Below, piece after piece: positions 33,401 through 64,000 of a stretch of 64,000 nucleotides of DNA. The number at the start of each line of letters is the position of its first letter. Within the stretch, counting starts at the first letter, position 1. The DNA comes from Amphiscolops sp. MND2022. Lineage: Eukaryota. Made by a program: the position numbers and the translations under genes. The DNA is taken from contig OZ076409.1 of assembly GCA_964187785.1 (NCBI GenBank), positions 44,704,001-44,768,000 of the forward strand, written 5' to 3'. The notes under the pieces were generated by a model, which saw only the letters and a program-made list of their open reading frames with translations, ran no database searches and was not told the DNA's origin.

Positions 33401-36400
33401 TAGTCAATTCTTTGACAACGTAGGAAACTTAGCTTACCGTCAAATCGTAGTCACTCCAGAAACTACGGAAGCCATAATCTGGACACTGCATAGCGACCCC
33501 ATGCAGGTACAACCTGGCGCTTCGAAAAATGCTAGGTGAAATTAGGAGAAGGTACTACGCCTAGAACTTAGCTGAAAAGGTACAGGAGTTTGTGAACAAT
33601 TGCCAAGACTGTATAAATGCGAAACCTGTATAAACTAGCACAGTTACAACACCATTTGAACCAATCTATGACCCCTGCAACGGTGCCAAAGACGTCCTGG
33701 AAATAGACTTAGTTGGTGAGCTACCGCAATCTAATGGGTACTCACACATTCTAATTGTCTGCGATAACTTCTCACGATATCTGTTTGCTGTTCCGATCCG
33801 GAAACCGGATACCAAATCTATAGTTGAAGCACTGTTAGACATATTCACGAAACATGCATATGTACCAAAGCATACCATTACCGATAAAGGCTCTGCCTTT
33901 ACTTCACCAGTCATCGAAGAACTGATGAGTACAGATGGGATTAAAGTATCTCATGCGACTGTCAAACACGCCCAAACAATTGGGATGATCGAGCAATCGC
34001 ATCAAAAGCTGAAACAAATCTGAAAAATAAACGTTGGGACCGGTACGTCAACCTCATCGTTATGGTTCACAACACGAGGTACCATCAAACTCTGAAATGT
34101 TCCCTGACTGAAGTCCTTCATTGCCGAGTACCCTACAATCCACTAGATCTCAAATTAGTCAACCCTCTAAGTTCGTCGAGGAACGCCACTGACACACAGT
34201 CACCAATGGACAACCTGAACGCTAAATTTAAAGAAACCTACACAAACATAATCCGAGCATTCCACAAGTACAAAGCGTGCTACGACCGGAAAGCGCAAGC
34301 ATCACCACTGAAAGTTAACGACTTTGCATCTTTTAAAGCCAGAAATCAGTACCCAATTGGAAAAACTACCTTTCTATTCCTTCAAGTGGGAAGGCCCCTA
34401 CAAGCTAGTTAAAGTTTTGTCACACTCTAAGAACATCGTTCTAAAAATAGGGACCTTCAAGACACAGTGTGTACACAGAATGAGGCTCCGCCCAATTGTA
34501 CCTTACGATCCAATTGAAGACTTAACAGACGACGCGAATCGTCATTACAGTGACCCTGATGCTATTGACGACCAGACATTATTCAATGATAACCTATCTG
34601 AATTCGAACGACCGACACCGATTGAAATCACAAATGAAATTGAAATCAACGAAACCGCAACTATAGACTCTGAACATGGAACGATTTATTATGAACGCAA
34701 GCAGGTCCGTGAGGTTCCATCTCCACCGAACTTTTCACCTGAAAACATCCGAACAGAAAACACACAACACACTGAATACGAGATTCCATCTGATACAGTA
34801 GCAACACCTCCGCTGGTTACTGAGAGCGAACAAAACGCCCTACTGAATGACGATGCGACGTCGACTACATCATCAACCGAAACGCCCGTACCTATAACAC
34901 ATAACAATACCACGCGATACAGCCTCAGAGAAGCACCCATCCCTAGAACATATAATAATCTTCTGGTTCATGAATTGCAAGCAAAACCTGCTCTCCTGAA
35001 ATTCATGGAACGAAAATCCACTAGTCAATAGAAAGTAAAAATTACATGCAATTATTTAGACATGACCCATACAACAACATGTACCCAACATACGAACATA
35101 AAATTAACTACCAGAGCGAGCTTGAATGAAAACTTTCCAAGGACGACTGATACTCACTGTCATACACACTCCGGATTACCGGCAGAGTAACGCTTTACTC
35201 TCTACCGAGACAGTTGACCGGAAAATAAATGCATACAACGCTGCTACCACTCAAAACATCACTACAGCAGTAATCTATAAGTACAAGCAATCAACATGTA
35301 AGCAATCAACATCACTAATTCAAGCAATTCATGTAAAATCGTAAGTGAAACCGACAAAAAGGGATTGTTCTGCGATTCCGAATGTAACGGACACACGCGT
35401 AAACATTCTACTTAATACTGATCAAAGAACACCCCGTGTTAAAGTAACAAGCCGGGACCGGCCCAAGTCGGCGCCATATCCAAGGCTCAAAAATAGCAAA
35501 AAGACTTCCAAGTGTCAAGTATTCGTTTACAGTAGTCGAAACTCGAAAATTTTTCGAAAATTTTTTTTTTGAAAAAATTACATACTAAAAAAATGGACCG
35601 AGTGGCGCGCCGGGGCTCGCTACCGCGAGCCCCTGGCGCGCTAACGTCTCACAATGCCGAAAAACTGAAAAGGGGGACCCTTTGAGGTTTTTCAACATCC
35701 ATTCTGTCGCAAAACATGAAAAAATTGAAGAAAAAAATTTTTTTATTTTCGGGAGAAAATCTCACAATGCCGAAAAAAACTGAAAGGAGGAACCCTTTGG
35801 GATTTTCCAACATCCATTCTGTCGCAAAACATCAAAAAAAATGCAGGGGGGACCCTTTGCGGAAAAAAAATTTCGAAAAAAAAATCCGAAAAAAATGTCT
35901 CGCAGTGCCGAAAAAAAATGAAAGGGGGGACTCTTTGGTCTCGCCCGGTATGATATGTTACGCGGAAAAACAGGTAAATTCATTTTGGTCCAGTTCGCTA
36001 GGCCAAATGGTGCTATTTGACACCATAATATTTTGTAGAACTTTTAAGAACTATTTTGGTCAGTTCGTGTGGATTGAAAAAAAAAAAAAAAAAAGAGTCA
36101 CTATAATAGTCGCGTTTCACTTCATGAAGCGCCGACTAAAAAACGAACTAAGCTACCCAGTTAAAGCTACATCAATCACACCTAAACCCCACCCACAGGC
36201 CTCACCATTCATCGTGTTGGCTGGGTGGGTGCGTCGTCAAAAATCGGGCTTGTGTGGTTGGCAGCGTCACAATGGGACGAAGCTTGCTGCTTGGGAAACC
36301 AGCGGCAAGTGGAGTCTGAGTTAGTTTTGTATAGAGATTTTGTGACGACAAACTCTTTTTCAAAAACCTGAACCTAAAATCAAGAGAAGAAACGACAGTA

Positions 36401-39400
36401 ACATGCAGTCGTCACACCCACTCGACTCTTAAGTCGTGAACGCCTTGTCCTTCCCGGTGATTCGTAGGCTTCGCCTCGTGCCAGAAAGAACACAGTAGAA
36501 ATCAAACACGCTCCAATGCAAACTACATACATGAAGTGAAATCCGAAGGATGGTCAATACCGCCCCTCACCTAACAAATAAATGTTAATCCATGGAAATG
36601 GGGTAACCCATCCCCAAGGACTGACAACTAAAAAGGACACACATCACGTATGATGCCGTCTGAGGACACACATCAACGAAGAATCTACCTATGAAATAAG
36701 TAGAACATGTAAAACAACTAAACCAAAACTACATGCATATGCTGACAAAACAAAACCAAGAAAACTAACTTATGTAAATTGATAAGTACTCATGAAACAT
36801 GTAAGCCACCCAGTTGAAATGCATTACATACAACTACACAGGGTGCCAAAAGAACCACTAATCAACATGAAAACATGCACAAACTCAAAATCAACACTGA
36901 AGTAAAGTACAAATGAATATTTAAGTCATGACGAGAAACAACAAAAAAACAATATATAGACATGTATCAGCATAAAGTCCATCAACAAGGTTGCCTTTCA
37001 GAAGAGTCTAGTGCAAAACGTTTCTGCCGACTCCCCGACGCTCCAGGAACGTAATCGTCCTTTGAATCATTCACATTAGCAAGACTCAATTTCTTGGATT
37101 GGCCAGGTTTCCCATCAGTTCTTCTGTTCCCCTTCTTTCCTCTGGAACTGCCTCCGTTACCACGCGCGCATCGTGATGAAATAGATACAGCACCACTGAC
37201 TCTTGTCAAAGACTGCACCGAACCTGTTTAAAAATGACAAATCGACTTCTGACTGAAGACAAGGCAGTTTAACTCCGAGCTTCCTTGGTAGTTTGCTACT
37301 TGTCGGGCTACTGAATCCACGATTCCCGCTACTCACAGGGCTGGTAATTACGGCCTCAATTACGTCCAATTGAGGTCAAATATTAGATCGGTAGTCGTCA
37401 GCCACCGGTGCCCCAGGCTTTACTACTTCGTTAGATTCGCAGGGATATTCGCAGGATGAAATTACATCGCACCAAAGTTTCGCTCAATCCATGCTTGAGC
37501 AGTTAGTCCCAAGGACACGAGCGATCCTCATCAGTCAAACGGGCCGTCCCCGTGTCAGTCCTTTCGCAGGTTCCAAGTAGACATTTCAACGAGCGACGAG
37601 TATGGCCATAGTAGTGCCCTTTTAGCCAGCTGCGTACAACATGCAAACTAGAACGAAGGGCATCAGCACTCATTGCCGTCTCTCCCACGTCTTCACAATC
37701 TAAAGCATCAGTACTGACAACACACACTCTGCACACTGGGTCGAACACCTCTCGCAACTGTGAAAAGCGACCCCAAGATGGGTACGATAACCATAGTGAA
37801 ATAACGTCATCGATCCCAATACCCGGGTCCCAGTCTGGCGCTTCCGGAACATTTGTGTAACTTCTCGGTTTTGCTGTTGGATCAGTCCACCGTCGTCAGT
37901 TTCCAGTATCCCGTAAAAGGTCAATACGGTACACGTCTCAACCAAGGAGTCTACCCGCCGATCGTCCGAACCACTTTGAATTAACACGGGGTCAAATGGA
38001 GTCAGACTGAAATACGTAATCCAATCCTGCCGGAATTCGGTGACTAATTCTTGACACATGCCAGCCAAAAGCTTCTGAACGGCTCGGTAAAAGTAAGGCA
38101 GCTGATCAGACACGTCGAATCGAAAATACTGTCCGAAATGAACCTTCTACAGCTCCTGGTTGGCTGGCTCCAGTTCACCACTCAGTGGTTGTAACAAGGC
38201 AGAAGTATAGTAGCTGGCAGGGATAGTACTAGCTGGGTAAACCAGTACGGCCATGGAAAGTCCGCACAAACGAGGACAAGCTTCCACAACTAAAAACAAA
38301 CAAACAAGCGGTAAATTCGAAACGTACTGGAATCATTCACCGCACACCGTAGCAGTACTATTACCACTGACACCCCCCCACACACACACGAACTCAACAA
38401 GATCCACTATAAGATATTCACGAAAAACACAACCACACACTGCGATCAAGGATGAACCGAAAAACGGCAAATCGCGGGCGCACCAAGGCGTCATCGAACA
38501 CCTGAGTTTCGATGGGGGCAGTCACTTGTAACCCGGAAGTTACTGATGGCCGATTACATCCGAAATAAACTGACAGGACACTCCACTGCTCAAAGATTTC
38601 CGCACAAATTGTTGCAAGTCGCTGTACACCCGATTCTCCGTACTGCACATACTGAAACGTTAAGAGACACATTCCAAAGCGTCAAGCCGGAATTAAAAAA
38701 TCGTTAGAAACATGAAATAGAGCACCTACACTACAACGACAATCCGCTATCCGCCGCTACGACTAACAGCACTTATGATGCATAATGCAATGAGCTCTAG
38801 ACCGGTTAACATGAAACTAAGGTTGTCATTACTCACACGTCGCAACTGAGGCAACCGGTCCAGCGCAGGATCTCTGATGACAGGCAAGAGCCGGTAGCAC
38901 AGGTAATCCAAAATTCCAATACGCTCGAGCCCCGCGAAACTGCCAATGAAAGCCTTTTGGAGATTGTCGTATATCGTCCCCACGTGAACAACCCCAGCAC
39001 AATGGGGCTCCGAGGTGATGTAATTAATGCCACGGCATGACCAACTCGGCTGTGCCCCTCTATCGCTACAGCCTGCAACCGGCCCACTTCGCACAAACAC
39101 AACAAAACTGGTACCAGAGTTTGAATGAAATGGGACTCCCAGCGGTCACCTCCGTCCACCACCGTTAAGACGATCGAGTCCACTGACTGCTCATTGACGA
39201 CATGGCATTCACAACGCCAGTACTGGCCATCCCGGCGGATTAGTAGGTAAAACGGACTGCGGGCTTTGACCAACTCATCTAATTGCTTATGGAAAAAAGG
39301 GTACAATCTATATAGGACTAAACTCTGAAACACACACGCCACAACCCATTACACGAAGGAAACCTAAAAACGTTTGACTTAGAAACAACAAAACTATCCC

Positions 39401-42400
39401 TCAGAACACGAAAAACAACCCTCCCCCCACAAAAACAAAATAAAAATACTATATAAACATACAAACATGAACCCATACACGCCAGTAACTTTCAATTCCC
39501 ACTATAGAATAGAAGCAAAACTCCAATTACCACAAAAAACACAAATTAGAACTCACCTGACATTGAGGGTACGTCAACGATCGCGTCTCAAGCTGCACCT
39601 CCGACTGCATGCAATTACTCCACGACTCCAAGCAACGAATCACACCTTCAAAGCGCACATGATTGGTAAAATTCACAACAAACTCACTGAGCTACAAGCA
39701 CAAGAATTGAGACCCAATAGGTGTTAACTGGGGACGGGATTGACTCGGCTGCTCTTCCTCCTCAATAGCGATCCTCTCTCAACTGAAAGGCTCAAGGTCA
39801 ATTTCAAGTAAAGCGGGGGTTCTGACATCCGCTCTTTCCGTATCCTTCGGTCTTAGACTGAACTCAGAGGCCGGCACGACTCGTGAAGAAGCGGCTGCTG
39901 CGTCATTATCCTGTATTTTGCTCTAACCGGGTATATTCGGCCCTTTTCCAGTGATTCCATAGGGACGATAAACTCGTCCAGCAATGCTTAAGTCTACTCG
40001 ACACAACAAGCAACGTGCATATCCATCCACCACCCGCTTGTGACGCGGGAAACCAACAAACGTCCCAACGACTCCAGAGACGAAATAAGACGGTTTGAAG
40101 ATTTTAGCCTTCCGACGTCGAACTATACCACAAACAAAACATAGCAGATCACAAACCGAGACAACACATGCTACCGGAGACCCTAAACACTTATTACAGA
40201 AACCCAAGTTTATAAAACTGAAACAAATGTTATGCTTTGTTCTGTCCAACTAAAACCTTACTACTAAAACTCCCTCATTTGATCTTTTGAGTTCTTACCA
40301 GGTTCAGCCGAAATGCCGCCACCACCAGCTACAGACGCAGTTGAACATTGCACACCAAAAGCTGATGGGACCACTGATGATGCATCCTTCTCAAACGCCT
40401 CCCGGCTCAATGCCACTGACGTTGATGGACTTGGGGGCGACTGCATTGCAACAGTTGACGACAAAACTGCACCTTGACCTCCAGAACCGCCGACTGGTCC
40501 AAGGGGCAAACAAGTCGCAACAATTTCCCCCAGAAGTGAAGTCAACGTTGCCATGAACTCGTTCACTAACGGAGCACCCACTGTACCGAGACGATCCAGC
40601 CGAGCGTCAACGGTGGCTTTCAAGAGACCGCCCATCTCCTTGGAGAGATAAGGGATAGCCGCCTCCAGATCACAGACTGACACAAGACGGTCAGACGAAT
40701 CCCCTAGAACAAGTACAACGCGTGAGAACATGGAAACTCTAAGCCAATGTACGGCCGGAAGATGATGCTGCGCTACACGCAACCTCCATACCTACACGTA
40801 GACAAGCCAACCAAGCACAGTCAGACAGTTCCAGAAAACAAAAAACAAGGATTAACATGCTTGCTTCGCTGAGATGCTTGCTCCCTCAAATTTGGGATAG
40901 AACTCGACGACGTAGAAGGTGCTTCACCGCGACGCCCAATCAATTGCTGAAGAGCGGTGACGATCTCTTCCAGAGTCAAACTTACTGCAATAAAAGTTCA
41001 ACGCAATAACTTACGATAAATTACCCCAGTGAGCATGTGTTTTTCCTGGGAAGTACAACAGAATAGCACGGAACAGCACTACATCCGTACTACACGTACA
41101 ACAAATTTTGTGGAGCGCTCAAAAACCAAACCGGGACAACGCCAGAAGAAAAAAAAACAAAAAAAGCCCAAGAAAGGTAATCGAGGAGCAGAAAACATTC
41201 ATGATACTACTTACGGAATTCGTCAGTTAATACGGCTTCCATAAAGGAATTGAATGTATCTGAGTTGACTGAGGGAAAACGGCCAGCGAATCGACAACAA
41301 GTGGGACTCACACCCACTTCAGCAGTTCCGCCGTCAGCCTCACTGACGACCTCCGCTTCTTCAGACGACATTACTTCCCCTTCGTCTACTAAACCGCCCT
41401 CCACAGATACCACAGTAGCGGCGACTTCCTCATCAGACAAAGCGATTGCCGACATCAATAACAACTACAATTTCTGAAAATATTGAGAAGAACGGGACAA
41501 TATTGTGAAGAACGGAATTTACCAAGGTTCGACGACACTTGCAAGGATCTGGTGAACTGATCACCTCCATTATCTAGGCAAAAGAAGCGCCTATCTACCG
41601 AAAACGAATTTCAAGTTCTAGAAATCGCATTCAATCAATGGTACATCCTCAAAAGACAACTCCTGTCTGAAGAAAAATTGAAAAACGCCAATTTTCGTCT
41701 TGTTCCATTTACTTATGCCTAGCATCCACCTGACCATGAAGCCTTCTACTTGGTATGCCGAGTTTGCCCAAGGAAAACCGACAATAATCGCCAATGATAA
41801 CAAACTATCAAATCACAAATCTAAACTGTAACTGTCAACGAGTAATTTCCCGCATATAACACGGTAGTTATTGTTTCCACACCCAACTTAGAATTGCCAA
41901 AACAGCACATTCGATGCCAAGAATTAACTGTTTCCGGTTCACTCACCTTTACTACCTCTACTCAAATCAGTATTAAAGCGCACGATTGGATGACGTGGCT
42001 ACTGACGTCACGACTATATGAACTATACTCTCTCACGACTGTACTTGCCGACTGAACGAACAACTTCTCGGGTTCCCTTAGAGATTAATACGCCAAATCA
42101 TATTTACTTCTTCACGCTTGTTAACAACTATTAAGTTCATTTTACTAAAACTGCCAACACTCCAACACCAATCTCAATTCTTTCGCTTCTCGTTCCCCGC
42201 GCATTCCTCTTTCTTTTCCAGAGGGGGAGTGTCATGCAATACGCATGATTACTAACAAACGACGATGTTACCTGTACAGCACCGCCAAATGGAAAACACA
42301 ATTGAAAATAAACAAGATTTCTGAAGTGACGGTGCCACACGACCAACGTCACAAGATCAGAGAAGAAAGGAACGAAAGGAGAAAATAGTGTAAAAAATGA

Positions 42401-45400
42401 ACGCAGTTGACCACACAACATTGAAGAAATAAACTCAAACTTTTATACATGAATATCTTGTGACGTGGCCGTGCTACATGCATCATCCATACATTTGAGC
42501 AGAATAAACCATTTTATCTAGACATTAAACCTTCTTCTAGTTTTTGACGTATTTGTATTCAGTACGTTGAATCGTGTGCTAAAAAGTACTTGCAATTTTA
42601 TTACTCATTCCATAACCTATCATATAGTCGATGTTGGTGCTACGACGTCATCATATAGTAACATGTATTATCTTCAACGTTAGTGATACAATATCGGCAT
42701 ACTTTCACAAAAGCAATTATACTACATATAGTACTAGTATGTATTGAACAATGAATCATGTAACCATAGCAACGTACTATCACTGCACTCATACCATTAG
42801 ACGCAAATTGCGCTACCAAACACAAGGTGCTAATTAACACCATCATATAATGCAATATGATTGGTTGATGAGGGCACGTGACCAACATCACCATACCAAA
42901 CAGCAGGTGCCAACTGACGGCCATTAACAATTGCTATACGACGACGTGCAGTTACCATCTACATCAACTTTGCAATAACCTTCAGTAACAATATATACCT
43001 AAAAATCGTCCTTCAATAATTCAAATAAACTTAAAAAACCTCCAACTTTGTCTTTATGGTTAACACGAGATCTCAGACAGCAAGAAATAATCTAGTAGAT
43101 ATTAGCAGAATGGATAGAAACAGCGACTCTGAGAGCGATAGTAGTGTACCCGAGATCCTTACGAGAGATCAAATAAACGAGTTCAATAATGGTGATTTAC
43201 TAAACTATCAGAATGGTAATGATAGACATGCAGTGGACTTACGTTTTTCCGAAATGAATAAACAGGTTACCGCTTTAACGAACCTCGTCCTAGCACTAAT
43301 TGAAAAGATATCCTCTAGCAATAGAGAAGGGAACGAATTAAACACTGTCTCAATTGACACGAGACACGTTCCGACAGTATCCCTCGTGTGCAGTGTCAAT
43401 GAGTGGTCCACTGAATTATAAAGCAAGCAGGTTGAGGGAAACTTACTGCATCGGATAAATTTCACCGCATGTTACGAAAAAGTATGTTTATTTAAAGCCT
43501 ACCCTCTTCACTAACTGCTCTGAATTTTTTCTATCAAATTTATTGACATTTCTAATTGCAGAAAGCATTTTCCAAGTCCGGAAGATGTCATTGTTGGTTC
43601 GTTTATCGTACTGTGTATGACAGTTTCCTCAATAATTGTTCCTAAACATATTCAAACAGACTTTCCGCTTTTTTAGCCTTAGGCGGTCCTCCACTTTTTG
43701 TTCAAGTTGAACTTTTATAAAACCGAATAATTGGCGTTTGTCCGGTTAGATTTTGGCAAGAAGGCGATACAAATTTCCTTAAAAAACTGTCAGTTTCAAA
43801 TCTGTATACGAGCTTTTAGTTGATATTGTTCTGTTAGTTTCTTTTTCGAACAATTGATGTTCGAAGGTGTTCAATTTTTTTTCTGAAAGCGTCTTCTAGC
43901 AATATAAGAAAAACTTAGCAATACCAAGGACCCTCTTGTTGCCTAATCAATTTTGCTGGCGCATAAAAATAATAGTCCTAGTGATCGTTCGAGACGAGAC
44001 TTCAATTCGACAAGATTTATTTTGGCCAAACCGAATAATTGGCTCCGTCTCCAAGTATCATGCCCGTCGTAGATAACTTGAAGAACAAGGAACATACCGA
44101 TAAAGCCAAATTCCGATTTCTTAAGAACACGGATCAAAATAGCTTCAGGAAAACAGAATGAAAATTATATATTACATTGCAAATGAGCCGTTCATTTTCT
44201 GTTTAGAGAGAACTTCATTTGATATTATTGTCACCAAAGAGGGTACTTTCGATGCTGATCTAGAGTCCTCAACCTCTGATGTCTATAACAGTTATTGCAA
44301 TGAAATCAAAACGGAAGTTAGTAAGCTGATTTGAAACATTCCAAATAAACTTTTTTGGTAAGTATAGTTTTTGCTTGAGTGAATCGTGTTAACGTTAAAA
44401 AGTGCACAAGTTTGAAAAAAATTAAACTCTGAAACGGAAATTGGTATGACTTTGGAACTTCTAAAAAATGCGCCTTAAAAAATCCATCCGTGTTCTGTAG
44501 ACACCCACTCCCTAGTTTTTCATCGTTGCAAATTTCTCTGAATCGCTAACCAAAGTATGAATTGAGTTTTTTGGGAGTGCAATTCAAACGGATCTTCAAA
44601 ATAGGCCATTTAAAAATGGATGGGTAAATCCTTATTTTTATGATCCATCCATACAGTTTCTTATTACACTGGCATGTGCACACTTGGAAAGTTCACCTAT
44701 TGCTACACTAGGGTACAAAAAATCCACTCGATTTCGCTAACAAAAAAATCAAAATTTCCCCAAAATACCATGTGAAATAACTTTTTAAATTTTCATTCGA
44801 TTTCACAAAAACTACCGTTTTAATTCTCATCAAAATCTGAAACTTCTCCACGTGAGACTTTTTTGTCAAATACATGTCATAAGAAAACGTTTACTGTAAA
44901 ACTTTTTTGTCTATGAAATTAGCTGTTTTTAGCTTTTTGGTACCATAGTGTATAACCAATGACTCACGGATTCAGTATGATTAGGATACAATTTTATCTT
45001 AATCATACTGAATCCTTGATTCCTGAATCCTTATTAATAAGCAAATCTTTGACAATTGTCAATTTTTTAAAACGTTTTCTGGCCTAATGAAAGTTGAATG
45101 AATAGCTACACGAGATTTGGAGATTTCCATTTAAACTCTTTCCAAAATTTTGATAATGTCAAAAGTAATAAAAGTGTTTTTTGTTTCAGGTGACAAATTT
45201 TTTCACGAGCCAACAGATCACCGTTTTGAGCATTGAGTGCAAAGAATTCATTGGAGGCAGCATTACTTCTAAGCTAGGGGTAAATTTTGAAGTGGAGGAT
45301 GGAGAGAACAGAGACACCGTAACAGCAGACAGGAAGCTGCAAGTTTATGACGCACTATCTACTGAAGCAGCTAGGACCACTCTGGAAATGACAGAGTTTC

Positions 45401-48400
45401 AAGTCTTGAGTCAGTGAAATAAGTTCTAAGCTTGAAAAAAACCCACAAAAATTCCGATGAAAAAAATCTTTGAAAACAACATCAGATGCTTCAATGCCCC
45501 GTTTTCCAGCTTCAAAGAAAAAATCTTGCGTAGACTTTCTTGCAAGAGCTGAGAATATGAATTTTGCCGGAATTATCTGCAGATATGGTAGTCCCCTGCA
45601 AAATTTTTGCAGAAACTATTTGATATTCCGAGATTCTGTAAGATTTTTCGGAAGACATCTGGCGAATCAACTACAATGATTGGGTTAAAAATTCTAGAGC
45701 AATGAGCCGTTGAAATTTAAGAATAGAGGCGTGTTTTACAGATGCAGACAACTCAGTATTTACAACTACTACTACAACTACGACAACGACCACTTCTACG
45801 ACGACAACGACAACAACAACTACCACGACTACTACTACAACCACCACTACAGGCGAGGCAGAAATTCACGAGATCTTTGGCGAGACCTCGCATATGAATT
45901 CGATGAAATTATTGAGTAAAATATTCACATAAGTTATGGAGAAGCTCGAACGAAGTTCATTGCACTGTTAAAATGACTGATTTACCTGAAAACGCATGCA
46001 TTTTGCCTTAAAGTATTTCAACTTTTTAAAAATTTTTCGATTTCACAATAAAGATAACCCTTGTAATATTGATCGAAAACTGAGAAAGTTTAGCTCGTGG
46101 GACCTTTGTGTCAATTGTGAAGCAAATTGTTGCGGTTTGAAATCGAGTGTCTTTAGCTTTTTGGTACCCTAGTTTAACTCAGGTAACTTTCTAGTTGCGG
46201 TTGCCCGAGACAACTTATCGGGCAATTTTCTCCCGCTGTTTTTACAGTGTATCATTTGTATTGCCTATGTATAGGCCCATAGAGTAATATATCCAAAGGG
46301 TATGAAATGCCCAAAGGGTATGAAAATAATCAAGTGTAAGTCAATCCCCGCGTAAAGACAGAAAAATTATAAAGCGTTATCGAACATGTATAACACTCAT
46401 TATTTTAATGAAAGCTCCAACGATGCATGCTTCCGAATCATATGCAAAGTGCCTGACTTCACGCAGTTCTGTATGAACCCAAAAATATCAATTTTTTGAA
46501 AATACATGTTGATAACACACTTTTACGTGAATGTCTGCCACTGGCACGTACTACAGCAACTCCAATTTCGAAGCAAGAGGAGGAAGAGACGAACACACTG
46601 TTGATCATTCTCATCGTAATCTCTTGTGTGTTTTTTGTGCTAGTAATCCTCATTCTCATTGCTCTTATCTTTTTCATGAGGAGTCAGCCTGAAGAGCCAC
46701 CTCCGAGAGGCAATGTTGAGAGGACTCCCACTTTCACATCTCAGGTGAACCACCAATGTTTTCACTCAATTTCGGACAAGAGGAGGAATGGCTGTGTTCT
46801 CTTTTTTCTTTTTTTTTTCAGGTTTTGTTGTTTTTGCTGATCTATATTGAGATTCATTTAAGTACGTCTAGACTCGGTTCGAGTCCTGCGCGAGAACAAA
46901 AGTTTTTATGCCTTTGGGATCATTCCGATCTAAACAACTTCTTTTCAGAAGTTTTCCAAACCGAAGTTCCTTTGATCTTTAGCAAGAGCAAGAGCTTTGC
47001 GAGCATTGAGGGCCTCTTAGGTCTCTTCGGCACTGTGCGATTTATCGGATAAAGTTTTTTTGAAAACTTTTTGAACACTTTCTTTGAAAAAACTTTCTTT
47101 AGGTGGCACTTTCTTCTTTTTTTTGTTTTTTGAGAACATCGGTTGAGAAAAATTGTTTTCCGAGCCGTAAGGGTAACCTATCTGTTTTTTTTGGCCCTGT
47201 GGGACTGATGAAAAGTTTCTCAAAAACTGTGAAAAGACTTGCGGTTTTTTCGGCTCTGTACAACTTTTCACGTATTTTTTTCTCGTTTGACTAGGCGTTC
47301 ACTGCTTTGGTTATTTTTAATGTATTCACCTTAGAATCGCGTTTTTTAACCGGAGGGTCAATGTCTTTGGGTGATTTTTGGCATTTTTTCAAACCTCGGA
47401 AATATCACGAGTCCTGGTTTTTTTGGTATTTTCAGATAAAGGTTGTTTTTTCTTTTACCTCGGAATGTATCCTTGGAAATATTCTGTTGTTATAGAATAC
47501 GAAAACCATCGCGCTGCCATTGTGCCTCTTGTTACTGCCTTTCTTCATCTACTTCTGTCAATAGGTACTAGATGCTGGAAAGTTATAGAGTTGTTTTAAT
47601 TTGGCCAAGGGGTTAACGCGTATTTTTCAGTGTGTTGTTATTGCGCGTTGTTGAGAAGAGAGAGAGAGAGAAGTTAATTTCCCCATTACCGCGGGGTGGA
47701 CGCCGAATAAGCAGTTCTGCTTTTCTAAGTCGGCGCCATTTCGGATACTATCTCCCCATAGCAAGCTATGGTACCATATTTGCAGCCAAGTGGTCAAGTA
47801 ATGGTGGACTTGAAGCTGTGGTTTCAAAGTGACTTGCTCAAGGTCACAAAGGTCTGACTGCTCACCGTTGCTCTTTTTGTTTTGCTTTTCTCCGCCAAAT
47901 GCGTTATTTTTTGTCATTGACCATACCACTAAGCCAGGGATGAAGAAGAAGAAGAAGAAGTTTATTTAACTGGATAGCATGAAACAAAATAATACAAATA
48001 ATTATTTATCATTAAAATTTATCCAGTTAGGACACCAGATGAGCATAATTGCTCTTCGAGCTAGTGCCCTTTTTGCATATAATAGAAGCACCAACTTGCA
48101 TGCTATCTTGCTCGGTTAAATGTTTTAGGCACAAAAATAGAGACAAAAAAGTTCTTTATTGTCAGTGATGTATAGGTCGTTGACAAGTTTTAGATGTTTT
48201 TTCAATTGCTCTTGGCTCAAATTTAGCAAGTTAGGGGGTATTAGGTTCAATTCAGTCAACCAATTATAAGCTTTCATTAATGAATTTGCTAAACATTTTT
48301 TCTTGACTACAGTTCGAGACGCAATTGGAGCGAAAACTCCTTTGGAGTTCCATCTTGTTGTCGTGTTGGACTTGGGCAATTTTTCAAAGTCTAGTAATTT

Positions 48401-51400
48401 CAATGGAGAATCAGATCTCATTTCTTTGAAAACTTCAGAAACCACTTCGTTCAAGAAAAGCTCGTAGACAGTATTGATTTTGTTCACAGCAAGTATTTCT
48501 TGCAAGGAATCTTGTCGTTTTCTGAAAAAAATAGCTCGTAGAATTCTTCTTTGTACACTCTCAATTCTAGATAGATTAGTTTTGGCCGCGGCTCCGTAAA
48601 TTAATAAGCCATATGTTATGATCGATTTAGCATACGCGTTGTAAAACATTAACAAACATTTTTTAGGGTACAGATGCCTTACGTGGTAAATTAAACCGCA
48701 GAATTTATTCAGTTTTTTCACAACATAATCTATGTGGTCTCTGAAAGTCAGCGTTGGATCAATGTAAACACCTAAATATTTGCAACAGGGTTTGTAATGT
48801 AAATGGTTATCTTTGATCTGAACTTCATCAGGTATGCCCCTTCCAAAATGAATCGCTTCACATTTATCGACATTGATTGTCAATTTGTTAGCATCGAACC
48901 AATGGGTCATTACTTTCACATCTTTGCGGATAAGAGAATCAGTTCTACGACCTGCTTTGATAACTGTCGTGTCGTCCGCGAACATTGTTAAAGAACTTTC
49001 GGTGCAAGCATTGTCTAGGTCATTAATATACAGTAGAAAAAGAAAAGGGCCTAGCACTGATCCTTGTGGAACACCACATAAAACTTTACCTTTCTTTGAT
49101 GTCTTGTCAAGAGAGTCAATGTATTGTAATCGGTTGGTTAAGAAAGTTTCAATTAGGTTGAAAATTTTTCCTCTGAAACCATTTATTTCCAGTTTGCGTA
49201 ATAAAATTGAATGATCAATCGTGTCAAATGCTTTACTCAAATCGACGAAGCAGGCTTGTCCTGTTTCCTTTCTATCAATTGAATCTCTGATATACTCAGT
49301 AATTTTAGCGATCGCGTGGATACATGACTTTTTAGGTCTGAAACCGAACTGATTTAAAGATAGGAGTTTACACTTTTCACTAAAGCCTAACATCCTTTTA
49401 AGGAGAACTGATTCAAAAACTTTGCTCAAGGGGCTTAACAAACTGATAGGTCTGTAGTTTCCTGGTTCTTTTTTATCACCTTTCTTGTGCCAAGGAATGA
49501 CCTTCGATACTTTCAAACATTCGGGAAAAATTTCTTCTGTTATGCATTTGTTTACGGCTTTTGCAAGATAGCATTCAATGATGGGAGAACAACATTTCAA
49601 AATTTCGTTTGAGATTCCATCATAACCTGCACTCTTCTTGTTTTTCATTTTGCATAAGATCTTGGAAATCTCCTGTTCATTAGTTTCGCTCAAGAGCATA
49701 GTCTTTGGTTGCATTTCAATAGGGAAAGTTGAAGATGTTTCTTGAATTTTTTTGGACAAAAGTGACCCGACACAAAGAAAATAATTATTTAAAATTTCAA
49801 CGTCAGGGAGATTATTTGCGTTTTCTGCCTGATTTTTCTTCGTTTTCAACGTTTTGTAGATTTGCTTGGGTGTTGGATTTTCCCCCAGTTTTTTGAAATT
49901 TTCGTTTCTTTTTTCTTTTCGGATTAATTTGGTAACGTTATTACGTGCAGTTTTGTATCGTTCGCGATTCGTTTTTGCGGGATTTTGAATCCATTTTTCG
50001 AACAAAATATTCCTTTTTACAATTGCATTTTTGATTTCGTTAGTGATCCAAGTCTCCTTGAAATGTTTTTTATTATTCTCAGCACGCTTTTCAGGTGCAA
50101 ATTTATCTACTGTTTCCATGATTGTTTTTGCCAATGCGTCCATGTAATCATTTGCATTCATATGTTGTGGGAGTTTTTTCAACTTTTGATCGAGAAGAAA
50201 GAGAAAATTTAGTGCCTTTTCCCCTTTAAGGTTTTTTAAATTCCGAACTTTAGCACATGGTGGATCATGTTGTTTGTTTGCTAAATTATGAGATACTTGA
50301 GCGGAAACCGTGAAATGATCGCTTATTGTTGTTTGCAAGGTTTCAGTTTCAATTGAATTAGTTGTAATAAAATGATCGATACACGTTTTTGACGTCGGTG
50401 TTACCCGTGTTGGCTCGAAATTTCTTATTCCTAGATTATAAGCACTTAGCAGATTTTTGTAATCTCGTTGAGCTTTCTCGTCTTTCAGTGTGTCGATGTT
50501 GAAATCTCCGAAGATTAAAATTTCCTGGTTCATTGAACTTAAGAAATACAGTAGTTTCTCCAATTCCTCGAAAGATCTGGCTAGTCTGAATGTCTCGGGT
50601 CTATATAAAACACAAAAAACCATCTTTTTATCAAAAAATGTCACTTGGAATATTGCGCATTCGATAACAGTTTCAAAATTGATCGACTGATACTCACATG
50701 CCTCTGAAAAATATGCTCCTACACCGCCCGACCTTCGTTTAGAAAAAGTTCGAGGTTTTGATTCAAAAGGTTGATAGCTTTTGATGTTCAACTTATCTAT
50801 AGGGTCATTTTCAGTTAACCAAGTTTCCTTTACTTGTCATCGTATCGAGAAGCAAAGCTAAGTCAGGTTGATGGAATCTCAAAGATTGAACGTTTAGGCC
50901 TAAAATGGTTGATCTTTTTGGTGCTTCATCATGAAAAGAAATAGCTGACATTTCAGAATTTTTGTTTCAGGATTCTCAATCACTGCTTCCATTAGATTCT
51001 TTATTGCGTTCGTCTTGGTTTGCAGCTTTTTTTGATGGCGGCGACTGTTTCTCTACCAGTAACGTAAAAAGTTTCTCAGTGAGATTGAATAATTTATCCA
51101 GCTTGTCACTCTGATCAGGTTGTTTCTCGTTTGAGGGAGAATTAAATGCAACGTGTCGATTTCGTTTGGCCGGTGTTTTCTTTTCATCCATGTTCACTTC
51201 GTTAGTGGGATATTTTTCCATGCCCCACTCAGTGAGCTCGCTTGAGGAGACCATTTTGTTCCCAATAGCATCAGCTTGTATACGGCTGTCCACCGGGTAC
51301 CATGTTTTATCATGTTCCGAAACCTTGACTCGTACTTGATTTTTGTGAGTAGCTGTTATGAAGTGTTTTTCTTTTCTACAGTAGTTGTAAACGTCGCGAT

Positions 51401-57360: not shown

Positions 57361-59620
57361 ACAAACGGAAACGGCCCAAGTCTAAGCCCCGGTCGAGGTT
57401 CAAACGAGTAACGTTCTTTAAATAAACGTTTTGACCAAATTAATATTTATCGAAAAATGTCGCACAGTCTTGAAAAAAAGCAGATCTTTCCCACAATCAT
57501 TGAGAAACAAATACGTTCCAGCAGATCAAAAAACTTCAAACACAGTGTCACGGTGCCGTGGAACGCAAAATTAAAGACCCTTTGTGCTTATTAATCCAGT
57601 TTGTTGCAGAAAATCATATCCAAAGAAGGGGACCGTTTGGCGACATCAAACAAATTTGGGAAAAGGTCTCACAATGCCGAAGAAAAAACAGTAAAATCTT
57701 CTGAGTTGTCTGTCTAGTAACAAAAGCTTCAAAAACTACGGTAACCAAAGGTGGTACCCTTTGGAGGCACAAGAGATGGCTTGCTAGTAAGGTAGGAAAC
57801 CCTGAAGAAATTCTGTGAAAACTGGACCTTCCAGTGGGAGTTCTGTGGTCTGGAGAAAGAAGAAGTCACTTTAAGAGTCGGGCATTTTTTAGGAGTCGGA
57901 AAAAATTTTCGACTACTTATGAAATCGTGCTGTTTTTTTTTCTCCCGACCTTTTCATGAAAATTTCAAATTTCTCAAAAACTGTCCATACGATTTTCACG
58001 AAATTTTGCACAGTCATTCTACACCCAAAGGAGCCCCCTGCGTGTGCAAAGGCATCAAAATCGTATGGCTGGGATGTGAGAAACGTAGCCAAAATTAGCC
58101 CAAAAATGGCCAAAAAACAGCCATTTTTCGACTTTTTTCGATTTTCTCAAAAACTGTCCATACGATTCGAACGAAATTTTCTACAGTTATTTTACAGCAT
58201 ATTAGAGTCCTATATGTGCAATGGCATCAAAATCGTACGGCTGGGATGTGAGAAACATAGCCAAAATTAGCCCAAAAATGGCCAAAAAAAGTCATTTTTC
58301 GATTTTTTTCGATTTTCTCAAAAACTGTCCATACGATTCGAACGAAATTTTCTACAGTCATTCTACACCATATTATGGTCCTTTATGTGCAATTTCATTA
58401 AATTCGTATGGCTGAGATGTGAGAAACATAGCCAAATTTAGCCCAAAAATGGCCAAAAAAACAGTCATTTTTCGATTTTCTTACAACTGTTCATACGATT
58501 CGAACGAAAGCGAGTCAGAAGGAAAAAGACTTAAGCCGACTCCTTTACCGCATATGCGGCTCTGGTTAGTTACACAAACAAGACGGGAACTTTTGAAGTC
58601 GGCGCTATTTCTGAGGCTCAAAAAGTTCAGTTTTTAAAACATGCGAAGGACGTTTTCATGAAAAACTCCTGTTTTCAAACCTCTGCCCTTCCTTAATAAC
58701 TCGCAATATAGTTCGGATATAACATCAAAAGTTCGGATATAGCGCTCCACTTCGGATATTAAGTCAAAAATTTGGATGGTATTGAAAAAAATATTGGATA
58801 TTTATTGTCAAAACCTAATATCAGACAAAAATGAAAATTTTGGAACAGTCTCATAGTGAGGAAAAATCTGAAAGGGGACCGTTTCGAATTTTTTAACAGT
58901 CATTTTGTTGCAAAATAACAAAAAACTCGAAGGGGGACCCTTTGGAGAATAAGAAATTATCGAAATGTCACGCAGTGCCGAAAAAAATCGAAAGGGAGGA
59001 CCATCTAGTCTCGTCTGGTTTTGTGGGTTATGTTTAAAAAAGTAAAAAACGAAAGGGGGACCTTTACACTAAGTTTCCACTGGCCAAACCTGGCCTTAGT
59101 AGTTTTAGTAGTTTCTGTAAAAAGTGGACCTTCCAATGTGAGGTCTGTGGTATGAAGAACAAGCCGGGAACGGCCCAAGTCGGCGCCATATCGATGGCTC
59201 AAAAATAGCAAAAGGATTTCAAAGTGTCAAGTATTCTCTTCTACAGTACCCGCATGAGGGAAAAATTGAAAAAAAACATCGAAATTTTTTTTGGTCCGGT
59301 AAGTCGCATAGCGCCGATAAATGTAAAAGGGGACCTCAAATGAGCCTAATTACCCTCTATCTCAAGCGCCAGTAGAAGTAGTGTGGCATTTAGTGTTAGT
59401 TTAAGTCAGCTTATAAAGCTTATAAAATCTGTCACTTCGTTGGTCTTAAAAAAATGTCACTGCAATAGTCTGCGTTTTTCTACGAAAAAGCGCCGATTAA
59501 AAAAAAGAAAAGGCACCACTATTGTCTGCGTTTTTCTACAAAAAGTGTCGACTAAAGTGGCCGACTGAAAACGACGAGAAAAACGCCGACTAAAAACGCC
59601 GACTATAAGCGCCAACTAAA
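57361..59620 (-). mobile_element. Cluster of three or more HINE family 1 copies (starts near 57361, 58577, 59158)
   Basis: Repeated ACAAG..GGAAC..CCCAAGTCGGCGC heads and GCGCCGACT ends. Confidence 0.65.
57891..58567 (+). mobile_element. HINE family 2 element with an internal ~170-bp tandem repeat (about 3 units)
   Basis: subTIRs AGGAGTCGG (57891) and CCGACTCCT (58536), 5' IR CGACT, 3' hairpin CCGCATATGCGG, inserted in a T run. Confidence 0.7.
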
Positions 59621-59644
59621 AACATCATTTGATGGAATATATAG

Positions 59645-59752
59645 TGTTGTATTTCAGAAGAGCAATGAATTGAAAAGAGAGAAAACAGACTGATTGATTG
59701 TCGTAATGTGGAAGAAAATCAAATTTCTATTTTTTGTATTCTAGTCTCAACA
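59645..59752 (-). repeat. BEL-3 3' LTR (108 bp)
   Basis: TGTTGAGAC...TACAACA inverted ends directly after the PPT; partner LTR is outside the window. Confidence 0.65.
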
Positions 59753-59807
59753 TCCCGCCCACCTTGAAGGATCCCTCAGAGATGATTCAAATAATTTCAG
59801 ATTTGTG

Positions 59808-60783
59808 ATGGCAGAATACGTGGGATCCGAAGAGGGAAGAAAGAGAAGTGGAAGACAGCCCAAGATGCCCGAGTTTAGGGAGTCTTTCAAAAGGACCAGA
59901 AGAGATGAAAAGAAGGAAGCCATGCCGACCTTCGAAGAGTTTTTTCTCTGGTTGGGGGTCTCCGATGTCTGCTCGAGGGGTAGAGGAGGTTCTGGAGCGT
60001 CGCGAGGAACCTGCTTTGCTGACTTCGAGCGTCGGGTGGCTGCCCGAAGAGGATTCGGTTAGAATTCCTTCTAGTTGAAAGAATGAACCATATAAACAAA
60101 AGGTGTCCAGAACTGTACTCGAACTGAAGATGAAGAAAATTGCAAGTATCTGTTAAACTTGATGCTTATCGGGGGCGCTGTTGTCTGCTAGCAGCTTCGA
60201 GGACCGGCCAGCGTCAGTGAGGAGAAGGAGAGAGGTGCAGAACGCCTTGGAGTTGCGGTCAAGTGTTCTGACTGGAGGAGGCTGTGAGGGGTCAGTTGTG
60301 CTACAGCAGCCCCTTCTGAGTGTAGTGGAGGAAAGGCGAGGATTGCTGATTCTGTTCGAACAGTCCAGTTTCCGAGCCTTTCATCATGATCTGCTGAAAG
60401 AAGGTGATGCATTTCTGACATTGCTAAGAGGAAGGAAGTTGTTGCTGACGTGCAACCTGTCAAATGTCGCACGAGAGCTGGATCGTCTGGGAAGGGATCG
60501 TAGAGAGGCAATAAGTAGAACCCTTCGCTACTTGCAGAGTCTGAAGAGTACGATGACCAAGCAGGTGTTCTGGGGCCTTCTGGAGCCTGGACAGTCTCTC
60601 TACCTTCCGTATGACTGGTTACACTCAGTCTGGACAGATGTGGAGGAGGGCCGCATTTGTCCAATGTTCTCTGTGGAGATGTCTGTGGACGAGGAGAGGG
60701 TGCAGCAGCAGCTCACTCTCGCTAATAAGTACACCGCGGTTGCTTGTCGAAGGCAGCAGCCAGGTGGAAGTCAACAAAGGTGA
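59808..60783 (+). pseudogene. JmjC-domain 2OG/Fe(II) oxygenase, antisense inside BEL-3; C-terminal 200 codons open, N-terminal part disrupted
   Basis: AFHHD (HxD, 60382-60390), LTLLRGRK, LEPGQSLYLPYDWLHSV (distal His 60622-60624); AATAAA at 60813. Confidence 0.8.
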
Positions 60784-63700
60784 CTATTGCAGGTAAATAC
60801 TTTGATAAGCCGAATAAATGTATGTGATAGTACTGGTGTGCAGACTATCTCCATGCCATTAAGTCGTAAGTTTTAGAAAGGGTAGTGCCATAAACTGTAG
60901 AAAGAAACCCATGTATCAGGAAAAGACTGCTGTACCCATAAATTTGTCCAGAAATTGGGAGAAGTGAAATTAACTTATCCAAAATTCAAATAAACGTTTT
61001 CAAAAAAGCTGAAATTTTTGGTTGAAAATGAATTATCTCAGTAATATGACATTTTTGACCTGTGTAACATATACGAAAACATGCCCTAGACACCTAATGA
61101 GGTAACGGTAGATAATTTATGCATGTAACATCAAACGGGGCAACAGTGGATAAAAATTGCCGAAGTCAGTTTTTGGGAATTTTTGCGAACATGAAATTTT
61201 TAAATGAAAATCGAAGTCAAATCAATCTGTAATTTGTCCTCTATTGCTCTGTGGTTCACCATACATAATTGGCTTCCTCCTGAGCTTGATAAAAGGTCGG
61301 ATGAGGTTTCAATTGGCTTTTTTAAACTCTTCTACTCTGTTTACATCGTCATTGCCGGAGAATAATTTTTAGATTTGAGCCATTTTCCACTTAATGGTGG
61401 CATGTTCTCTTCCGCGAGTAGCACTAAGTCACCAATGGCAAATTTCGGTCCTGCTGTGAGCCATTTTTTCCGTATTTGAAGTGTAACAAGATGTCGCTGT
61501 GCCATGATGATCAAAAGGATGATTTGAGCTTTTCCAGTTACTTGAATCTTTGGTTCATTAAATGTCTTTACCCTTGCAGTCTTGCGGGATCTGCTCCATG
61601 TGAGTACAAATGAGAAAATGTGCAGGGGTAAGTGAACGAAGATCATTTGGGTCATTCGACATAGCTGTTATTGGTCTTGAGTTCAAAATGGCTTTTATTT
61701 GTATGATGAAAGTATTGAGTTATTCATAAGAAAACTTCTGTATATCGACTGTTCTTCGTACGTGGCGCTTCATACTTTTAATTGCGGCTTGCCACAGCCC
61801 ACCAAAGTGTGGAGCTCTCGGTAAGATTGTGACCCATTCGATGCCTTTCTGAGAGATGAAGTTTGAAATTGAATCTTTGGTGTTCTCTTTGCTGAATAAT
61901 GATTGCATCTTTAGGAGATCGTTCCTGGCTCAAGTAAATTTGGTTTCATTGTCGCTGAATATTTTCGCTGGTTTTCCTAGTCTACCTGTGAATCGTTTGA
62001 GCGCAGATATGCATGATTCCTTTGTCAAATCTTGTACGATTTCCAAATGAGTTGCTCTGGTAGTGAAACAAACGAAGACTGTGATATATGTTTTGTTGTC
62101 TCGCTTCGTGGCTAATGGTCCTGCTAGATCAATTCCAGTGCTAGTGAAAGGGCGTGATTCGGTGATTGTTTCTGCTCGTAAATCAGCCTTGACTTAAGCT
62201 GGAATTTCGTTTGAGAATCGGCTACATTTACGCATTTCTTCATGATCTTTGTGACGAAACTTTCTCCTATAGGAATTCAATATTCTTCGCTACTGGTATT
62301 CAAAGTGAGCTGCCCCCACCATGAGAGGTAGTTTCATGAAAATATCGTTGTATCAAGCTGGCGAAGTTTGAATTGGCTTTGACTAGAAATGGAAACTTCT
62401 TCTTTTCAAGAAAATTACCTTGCGAAAGTCGTCCTCCGACTCTAATGTTGTGTGTTTCTGTGTCGAAGAATGAACAGAGATTGAGTAATTTGCTTGTTTT
62501 GGGCAATTCCTTTTGTGCTTGTAGAAGGCTGTATTCCTCTTGAAAATGTGTGGTTTTGCGAGAGATGAGAAAATGCAATTTTGCCTGTTGTAGTAGATGT
62601 GACGTGATTTGACTAGGAATTTTGTCTTTGTTGAACCTGGAATTGGCTATTTTGACACTAGCAATCACTCAAAATAGCTTATGCAATATTGAGTAGACAT
62701 TCTCTTTCAAAATTACCCGTGTTACTTTTTTTAGATAGACTCGTGGTAACTGTTTCTGTTTGATTGTCTTCGCATGGCTTTCTGTTTCTTTCTTCTCTCC
62801 AAAGGATTCTATGGAAGTCTTGTGGTTCTTTATTGAGTGCGATCTATCTGTACATTTTTGCAATGTCGGTCGAAAGTGCGACTAGATGAAGTCTGAATTT
62901 TATCAAAATTGAAAAGAGATCCTGTTGAATCATTGGTCCAACCATGAGAGTGTCATTTAGTGAAACACCTGAAGTGGATTTGGCGGAACCATCAAAAACT
63001 ACTCTGATTTTGTTTGTTGTGGAATCTTCTTTGTGGACACAATGATGCGGTAGAAAATTGATTTTTTCTGAGTCAATCTCGTATACCTCTTCAGGAACTT
63101 TCTCTAAATGCTGCAAAGTTATGAATTCATTCACAAAATCTGTTCAATCTTGCTTCAGTTTGTCATTGGCATGAACTCGTCTTTCTAGACTGAGAAATCG
63201 TCTTTTTGCTTGAACGTATTTATCTCCAAGTTTATGAGATTTTTCTTTGAACAGCATTTGAACTGTGAACCTGTTGTCCACTACTTTGGTAGTATCCTTG
63301 AAATGTTTTCCACAATCTATGTTATCTTGTATGAACTTTTCGACGGGTGGAAGTTCTTCTTACTCCCAGAATTTCTTTAGATCGAATGTTTCATTTATGC
63401 AAGGGAGGTTGTGAAGGTTGGACTGTAGCCTTGCGGGTGCTTGCCAGAGGCAACCCAACCAAAAATTGTGTTGTGAAATTTGAGACCATTCGGTTCCTCG
63501 AATTTTCCAACGCGATAAATGAGCCTGTCTTGTTGAAAGTTGGATCGACGAGTTCAACTGTCTTCATATTTAAAAGACCTTCTATGTAAAACGTTCTGCT
63601 GGGAACATTCTACGTTAGCTTGGGCTGGACAAAACCTGTTGTAGAAATCGATTTTACATAATTTTTGGACTTGAGATGCAACCGAACAAGTCTTGAATTG

Positions 63701-64000
63701 TGAGTTTTTGAGATGTCTTCAACTACAATGACTGTCAAATTCCGTTTTTCTCGTTTCATCCCCATTCTTTGAGGTGCTTCTTCACTAATGAAGTTTATTT
63801 CAGAGCCTATGTCAAGTAAAACTCAACAAGTATGAGTGTTGGAGGCGTGATCTTCAATTGTGACTATTGCGGTTGGCAAAACTCCTGCCGAAAGAAATGT
63901 CCTCTAATGCCCCAAAACAACTGAGTTGGACGTCTCCGCGTTTTTGGAGTGGGGTTCAACGTGTGAAAGCGTGTTATGCATGGCTTGGCATTTTTTGCAT

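What the first reader, a model, noticed from the sequence alone, without database searches (positions are those of the whole stretch)
59645..61341. BEL/Pao retrotransposon carrying an antisense JmjC oxygenase gene between integrase and the PPT
Seen: BEL-3 runs on the minus strand. Its integrase ends near 61300, but the PPT (GGTGGGCGGGA) and 3' LTR come only at about 59760-59645. The gap holds a + strand ORF with AFHHD...LTLLRGRK...LEPGQSLYLPYDWLHSV and its own AATAAA. Known: HxD...H plus the conserved Lys and PxxWxH form the JmjC Fe(II)/2OG site (histone demethylases, JMJD5/6/7-type hydroxylases). Inference: the JmjC gene is cargo inside the retrotranscribed unit, possibly expressed from antisense LTR activity, and may act in anti-silencing or in modifying host or particle proteins. 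I know of no description of JmjC cargo in BEL elements. The 5' part is disrupted in this copy.
Basis: partly seen in the sequence, partly recalled or inferred. Interest (0 to 1): 0.87.

Follow-up and report, generated by a model that had tools for sequence, protein, structure and literature searches.

The report
Retrotransposons carrying their own JmjC oxygenase
Many BEL/Pao jumping genes in this genome carry, on the opposite strand, a selectively maintained extra gene for a JmjC (histone-demethylase-like) protein that likely helps them resist host silencing; the copy in this window is a broken one.

Summary
The antisense ORF is exon 2 of a predicted two-exon, ~290-aa JmjC gene. It lies inside a BEL/Pao element bounded by two LTRs and a 5-bp target-site duplication. 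The window copy is dead (exon-1 frameshift, lost splice acceptor); 4 of 15 close copies are open.

Relatives at 24-99% identity sit in the same antisense slot in 34 of 36 divergent loci sampled. They also occur in a second assembly and in an env-like-ORF-bearing Gypsy family. H-x-D...K...H is invariant in 29 of 29 aligned members. dN/dS is 0.27 (p=1e-6) for the window exon, and JmjC distances track pol distances.

A family profile hits only KDM7-group structures (PHF8, E 1.4e-9), but the fold ties with JMJD5/FIH/JMJD6. The 2OG and substrate pocket is remodelled, and no PHD or JHD domain was detected. Best reading: an element-encoded oxygenase countering chromatin silencing (about 0.5). Substrate and expression are untested; no RNA run was listed. 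Ten literature searches found no JmjC cargo in BEL elements.

The parts
59640..59644 (.). 5-bp target-site duplication; its twin follows the 5' LTR beyond the window
59645..59752 (-). 3' LTR of the BEL element, internally deleted (108 of about 200 nt); partner LTR at window-equivalent 65254-65460
59753..59763 (-). polypurine tract
59795..59800 (+). splice-acceptor-like site just before the start codon, conserved across families
   Evidence: (13 of 15 rows; background 62 of 2164 ATGs)
59808..60057 (+). exon 1 of the JmjC gene (basic N-terminus); frameshifted in this copy (250 nt against 261)
60058..60171 (+). 114-nt phase-0 intron, antisense to the genomic RNA; acceptor lost in this copy
60172..60783 (+). 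exon 2: JmjC core; His 60382, Asp 60388, Lys 60436, distal His 60622
60793..60798 (+). splice-donor-like site just after the stop codon (predicted 3'-UTR intron)
   Evidence: (14 of 18 rows)
61237..64000 (-). degraded BEL pol (protease to integrase, with internal deletions); gag and 5' LTR lie beyond the window

Best explanation
The element carries an antisense accessory gene for a JmjC-fold protein, kept under purifying selection across many BEL families, that is likely an Fe(II)/2-oxoglutarate oxygenase helping the elements escape chromatin silencing. SHOWN: position inside the LTR-to-LTR unit, copying of gene and intron to new sites, JmjC fold of the models, invariant H-x-D/K/H, dN/dS well below 1, broad co-divergence with pol. 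INFERRED: (1) An antisense transcript enters from the 3' LTR/PPT side and is spliced at the acceptor before the ATG (cis from the LTR, or trans-splicing). (2) The introns survive reverse transcription because the genomic RNA is the other strand. (3) The basic-tailed ~290-aa protein is nuclear. (4) It oxidises a silencing-related target: a repressive histone methyl-lysine as KDM7 does, or a silencing protein. It would act in trans, so dead copies like this one could profit from live ones. Step odds: maintained cargo 0.97; active oxygenase 0.75; counter-silencing role 0.5; histone lysine demethylase specifically 0.3.
For: Context: 34 of 36 divergent stretches and 15 of 17 own-family stretches have BEL pol on the opposite strand next to the gene. 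Different 5-bp TSDs in 6 of 6 copies checked. Selection: omega 0.27, p=1e-6 for exon 2; 0.16-0.25 for exon 1; 0.16-0.45 in 10 of 12 measurable pairs. H, D, K, H in 29 of 29. The profile hits 9 PDB sequences, all PHF8/KDM7A/PHF2/ceKDM7A. Models have pLDDT 88, and the top fold matches are JmjC enzymes (PHF2 Z 13.4, rmsd 3.9, 218 aligned). Mantel rho 0.61, p=0.0002, n=20. The retroelement clade falls on the KDM7-like side of a quick tree (SH-aLRT 85). Other mobile families here carry KDM2/7-like JmjC genes too. Precedents for transposon-borne epigenetic enzymes: PMC9289625, PMC12730594.
Against: No activity or expression data. The fold ties within 1 Z unit with JMJD5, FIH, KDM2A, JMJD6 and TYW5. 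Positions that, from recall, bind 2OG or methyl-lysine in PHF8 are changed: Thr at His-3 is Arg in 20 of 29, the Tyr at Lys-7 is found in 0 of 29, and the Phe after Asp is mostly Leu. No PHD or JHD domain was detected in 37 members, so there is no visible targeting module. A strict NLS pattern matched 4 of 9 full-length proteins. Many BELs lack the gene (1 of 2 blind picks), so it is dispensable for BELs in general. The two least-diverged pairs have omega 0.82 and 1.24.
Confidence: 0.5

Rival explanations
1. An active JmjC protein hydroxylase (JMJD5/6/7- or FIH-like) acting on a non-chromatin host protein (translation, splicing, RNA defence) or on the element's own Gag/Pol.
For: It is a JmjC-only protein of about 290 aa. 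The fold ties with JMJD5 (Z 13.0, rmsd 3.6, 190 aligned) and FIH (Z 12.9, rmsd 4.0, 213 aligned). It has Trp at Lys+2 like host JMJD4/6 in 28 of 29, and the KDM7 pocket is not kept.
Against: The sequence profile finds only the KDM7 group in the PDB. The tree groups it away from host JMJD4/JMJD6, with modest support. The termini are basic.
Confidence: 0.25
2. A non-catalytic binder or decoy that keeps the metal site for folding and sequesters a host chromatin factor.
For: Two of the recalled 2OG-binding positions are replaced.
Against: All three metal ligands and the 2OG lysine are invariant at 24-40% identity. An Arg at His-3 could itself bind the 2OG carboxylate (inference).
Confidence: 0.12
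3. A nucleic-acid oxygenase (TYW5-like) that modifies the primer tRNA or the element's RNA.
For: TYW5 Z 12.4, rmsd 4.2, 200 aligned; the tails are basic; an RNA-demethylase precedent exists in Gypsy (PMC9289625).
Against: No sequence hit to TYW5; the precedent is an AlkB enzyme, not JmjC.
Confidence: 0.07
4. Kept for the host's benefit or for self-restraint of the element (the antisense RNA or protein dampens transposition).
For: Antisense transcripts can form dsRNA (PMC7264820, passages).
Against: Selection acts on the protein frame and follows element lineages. Copies decay after insertion: 11 of 15 are broken.
Confidence: 0.04
5. Neutral passenger, one-off retrocopy, or shadow of a sense-strand ORF.
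For: The in-register reverse frame also shows omega 0.31. The single-sequence Pfam score is weak.
Against: That reverse frame has 1-9 stops in 22 of 22 rows. The gene keeps introns and has no TSD of its own, and the catalytic residues are invariant.
Confidence: 0.02

Closest known systems
KDM7 group JmjC demethylases (PHF8, KDM7A, PHF2, ceKDM7A) and KDM2A
   Same: Only PDB sequence hits of the family profile (KDM7 group); top or tied fold matches; H-x-D...K...H kept.
   Different: 10-17% identity; no PHD or JHD domain detected; pocket remodelled; borne by transposons in hundreds of candidate copies.
AlkB m6A demethylase of orchid Ty3/Gypsy elements (PMC9289625)
   Same: A 2OG oxygenase fixed as an extra ORF of an LTR retrotransposon, proposed as counter-defence.
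   Different: AlkB and not JmjC; plant Gypsy; described as a recent acquisition in Phalaenopsis; activity shown there, not here.
TET/JBP in fungal DNA transposons; SET in Phytophthora transposons; Vandal anti-silencing proteins (PMC12730594, Introduction)
   Same: Epigenetic enzymes or regulators carried by, and passed between, transposon lineages.
   Different: DNA transposons; other enzyme classes; not this fold.
[quoted passage not shown]
   Same: Same slot and orientation; Grande gene23 has its own promoter and a nuclear product.
   Different: Products of unknown function; here a recognisable enzyme with introns, in BEL/Pao.
Belpaoviridae / BEL-Pao (PMC8742986, PMC3118150)
   Same: LTRs, PBS, PPT, gag-pol order, size about 7 kb.
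   Different: Described with gag, pol and at most an env-like gene; no antisense gene in the text seen.

Membership tests
BEL/Pao LTR retrotransposon | Paired LTRs with target-site duplication, PBS and PPT | tested here: met
BEL/Pao LTR retrotransposon | Gag-PR-RT-RH-INT with Peptidase_A17, DUF1759, DUF5641 | tested here: met
   family copy, 1771-aa ORF; window pieces
JmjC oxygenases | Double-stranded beta-helix JmjC fold | tested here: met
   predicted models
JmjC oxygenases | H-x-D/E...H metal triad and 2OG lysine | tested here: met
   29 of 29 aligned members
JmjC oxygenases | Pfam JmjC above the curated cut-off | tested here: inconclusive
   window ORF below; relatives L138 at 30.3 and L156 at 24.0 bits reach 24; 7 of 37 match PF02373 at E<=0.05
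JmjC oxygenases | Fe(II)/2OG-dependent turnover | not testable with these tools
   needs an assay
KDM7/KDM2 histone demethylases | Nearest sequence group | tested here: inconclusive
   profile hits only KDM7 group; tree support 85 with a 39%-filled host fragment; fold tie with JMJD5/FIH/JMJD6
KDM7/KDM2 histone demethylases | PHD/CXXC reader and JHD helical domain | tested here: not met
   none in 37 members; only 1 JHD hit in the genome, at a host gene
KDM7/KDM2 histone demethylases | Thr/Tyr 2OG contacts and Tyr/Phe/Asn pocket (residue roles recalled) | tested here: not met
   the last-strand column is poorly aligned
KDM7/KDM2 histone demethylases | Histone methyl-lysine demethylation | not testable with these tools
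   needs an assay

The most novel reading that the evidence does not exclude
An old, retroelement-specific clade of JmjC enzymes with a re-engineered (Arg-type) 2OG pocket, shared between BEL/Pao and env-like-ORF Gypsy lineages and expressed antisense by trans-splicing, erases repressive histone marks. With the KDM2/7-like genes of the RAG1-like DNA transposons in the same genome, it would be an enzymatic anti-silencing arms race in an animal germline.
Probability: 0.3. Interest if true: 0.93.

Novelty: new variant of a known kind. Interest (0 to 1): 0.82.

Why it matters
BEL/Pao elements are described as gag-pol with an occasional env. Here many families keep a spliced antisense enzyme gene under selection, and two other kinds of mobile element in the same genome carry JmjC genes too. 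If the protein erases or blocks silencing, it would be an animal counterpart of plant Vandal anti-silencing proteins and fungal TET transposons. It would also give antisense pol-to-LTR ORFs, whose functions are unknown in plants, a directly assayable case. The remodelled active site defines a new JmjC clade whatever its substrate.

Tried and rejected
- Expression: no RNA holder was listed for a family stretch, so no reads were laid.
- Single-sequence Pfam and PDB searches were not significant. The first homologue search returned only 8 close family members.
- A search for longer cellular relatives of the DNA-transposon JmjC found none (weak evidence). No source names came with any homologue.
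- Nematode SL1 RNA was not found; nothing rang in the controls either, so this is uninformative.
- No conserved splice donor or TATA box was found in the LTRs, so the 5' end of the antisense transcript is unknown.
- A cassette swap in the window's family (JmjC and pol trees disagree) is not established: p-AU 0.055.
- An acceptor-like site about 550 nt after the stop recurs, but I read it as integrase codon constraint (inference).
- The host ORF I took for ribosomal protein S20 from recall had no Pfam hit.
- The ends of the Gypsy and DNA-transposon families were not examined.
- No complex prediction was run; it is not suited to an enzyme with its substrate.
- Ten paper searches listed no paper on JmjC cargo in BEL or other LTR elements. 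Repbase entries, subscription journals and supplements were not seen and may hold one.

Full report
1. OBSERVATION. The + strand frame 60163-60783 with the quoted motifs is there, opposite a degraded BEL pol. Alone it scores weakly against JmjC (E 0.12). The element is complete in outline: PPT 59753-59763, an internally deleted 3' LTR 59645-59752, and a partner LTR at window-equivalent 65254-65460 (94.9% over 78 nt). The same 5-bp duplication flanks both ends. A DNA search gave 22 matches at 81-100% (20 candidates scored). Of the 17 elements fetched at 10 kb, 15 show pol on the opposite strand. Five other copies with both LTRs each have their own 5-bp duplication, and LTR identity runs from 93.5 to 100%. 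The gene has therefore moved as part of the unit, recently and repeatedly.

2. GENE STRUCTURE. The ORF is exon 2. An intronless relative (P0011) aligns from ATG 59808 and leaves a 38-codon gap, which equals the 114-nt intron at 60058-60171. All 17 loci covering both sites have the donor, and 16 have the acceptor; the window copy is the exception. It is also frameshifted in exon 1, so it is dead; 4 of 15 close copies scored open. The same intron position occurs in five more distant elements, another position in two, and several families have none. An intron antisense to the genomic RNA would not be removed during replication (inference). Two more splice signals are conserved. An acceptor-like site lies 6-12 nt before the ATG in 13 of 15 rows (one variant, one with undefined start; background 2.9%). 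A donor-like site lies within 25 nt after the stop in 14 of 18 rows (background 9-17%). Both patterns were written after seeing the sequences. No conserved donor was found in the LTRs, so cis-splicing from the LTR or trans-splicing remains open. A few host ORFs show the same acceptor-ATG spacing.

3. EXTENT. A protein search gave 333 candidates, 150 scored, down to about 31% identity. I fetched 36 stretches spread by hand over that ranking, with more sequence on the expected pol side; 34 have BEL pol on the opposite strand, and L091 and L100 do not. Two BELs picked only by their DUF5641 score gave one with a new JmjC family and one without. That family's search gave 84 further matches. Of the top 150 of 6215 DUF5641 candidates, 14 have an antisense JmjC hit 0.46-1.03 kb downstream. 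This is a lower bound, using 79 of 84 and 32 of 150 hits. Two contigs of another assembly (JAAUXW010134478.1, JAAUXW010005763.1) show the same layout. The first is only 74% identical to its best match in this genome. A Gypsy family carries a member of the same clade antisense behind pol.

4. PROTEIN. The family profile matches 9 PDB sequences, all PHF8, KDM7A, PHF2 or ceKDM7A (best E 1.4e-9). The Atlas gives JmjC clusters at 0.95. Models of the window exon and of a full-length intronless member have pLDDT 88. Both match JmjC structures best; for the full-length model, PHF2, JMJD5, FIH, KDM2A, JMJD6 and TYW5 lie within 1 Z unit (13.4-12.4). H-x-D, K and distal H are present in 29 of 29 aligned members, 10 of which have unknown context. 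Against PHF8 (residue roles recalled), the Thr at His-3 is Arg in 20 of 29, the Tyr at Lys-7 is lost in all, and the Phe after Asp is mostly Leu. No PHD or JHD domain was detected. It has the fold and metal site of a JmjC oxygenase, but it is not a KDM7 by the membership test.

5. SELECTION AND HISTORY. Window exon 2 against a young copy gives 32/145 synonymous and 31/464 non-synonymous changes, omega 0.27, p=1e-6. The other frames give 0.78-1.44, except the in-register reverse frame (0.31), which has stops in 22 of 22 rows. Exon 1 gives 0.16-0.25 in 4 pairs, and gag-pol 0.45. Of 16 pairs, 10 give 0.16-0.45, the two closest give 0.82 and 1.24, and 4 are saturated. JmjC and pol distances correlate (rho 0.61, p=0.0002, 20 of 22 rows; 2 dropped for low RT coverage), and the main clades agree; related rows are not independent. 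The window's family is placed differently in the two trees, but not significantly (p-AU 0.055). In a quick tree the retroelement genes form one clade (SH-aLRT 99). It lies beside the DNA-transposon JmjCs and a host KDM7-type fragment (85); host KDM3 and KDM6 were left out. The donor is not established.

6. MECHANISM. Shown: cargo status, selection, fold and metal site. Inferred: antisense spliced expression, nuclear location, catalysis and target. I commit to a trans-acting counter-silencing oxygenase (0.5), because the nearest sequence group removes repressive marks (recalled) and other mobile families here carry KDM2/7-like genes. The remodelled pocket keeps a protein-hydroxylase reading alive (0.25).

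7. LITERATURE. PMC8742986 (whole text) and PMC3118150 (passages) describe BEL/Pao with gag, pol and sometimes env. PMC9289625 (abstract, Introduction, screen section) reports an active AlkB in orchid Gypsy. PMC12730594 (Introduction, passages) covers TET, SET and Vandal, with no JmjC mention. PMC7264820 (passages) and PMC11963269 (abstract) cover antisense ORFs of unknown function. PMC5408684 (abstract) shows enzyme ORFs shared between retroelement types. PMC6431247 and PMC8616336 (term look-ups) gave no transposon-borne JmjC. Ten searches listed none; Repbase, subscription journals and supplements were not seen. Unchecked AI notes from this scan report zinc-finger-JmjC genes in fungal Gypsy elements. 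That is a parallel lead, not support; a sequence look-up found no look-alike.

8. VERDICT. A real, old, selected accessory gene of many BEL/Pao families and at least one Gypsy family; a new variant of the known theme of transposon-borne epigenetic enzymes. Function untested. Interest 0.82.

Noticed in passing
L137:2231-2995, L138:2209-3105: Gypsy family with gag, pol (RT, RNase H, integrase), an antisense JmjC of the same clade (omega 0.25 between the two copies) and then an env-like ORF (basic cleavage-like site plus hydrophobic peptide, by eye; no Pfam hit). LTRs not seen.
   Followed up: partly
L135, L136, L151; L139-L142, L152: Two multi-copy families (dozens of near-equal hits) with a KDM2A/PHF8-like JmjC gene (E 2e-18) that keeps the Tyr and Phe pocket positions. 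They lie beside a RAG1-like ORF (Atlas 0.93), a BRCT-like domain and an ORF that looks Tudor/chromo-like by eye (no Pfam hit). Probably Transib/Chapaev-type DNA transposons; ends not mapped.
   Followed up: partly
L146, L143: Host KDM5 and two further ORFs have the same acceptor-like site 5-8 nt before the ATG. One lies about 180 nt behind the stop of a JMJD4-like gene on the same strand, a hint of operons and trans-splicing.
   Followed up: partly
L155:2999-3244, 92-355: Exons of a host KDM7/KDM2-type gene (JmjC C-terminal half and JHD), the only JHD hit in the genome; candidate relative of the donor.
   Followed up: partly
L033, L081, L083, L085, L087, L103; L090, L094; L069, L070, L074, L095: Three gene structures of the cargo: a phase-0 intron 70-72 codons before the first His, a phase-2 intron 15 codons before it, and intronless.
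   Followed up: yes
L075, L080, L088, L093, L096, L097, L095, L091: Tandem or partly duplicated elements with two or three JmjC copies 3-7 kb apart.
   Followed up: no
window 4130-15388 and 27794-42811: Two further LTR pairs with RT/integrase matches, the second Gypsy-like; neither holds a JmjC hit. An 806-aa minus ORF at 7275-9692 has no Pfam hit.
   Followed up: partly
window 48128-50836 (-): LINE ORF2 with endonuclease and RT.
   Followed up: no
window 57963-58460: Tandem repeat of about 171 nt, three copies.
   Followed up: no
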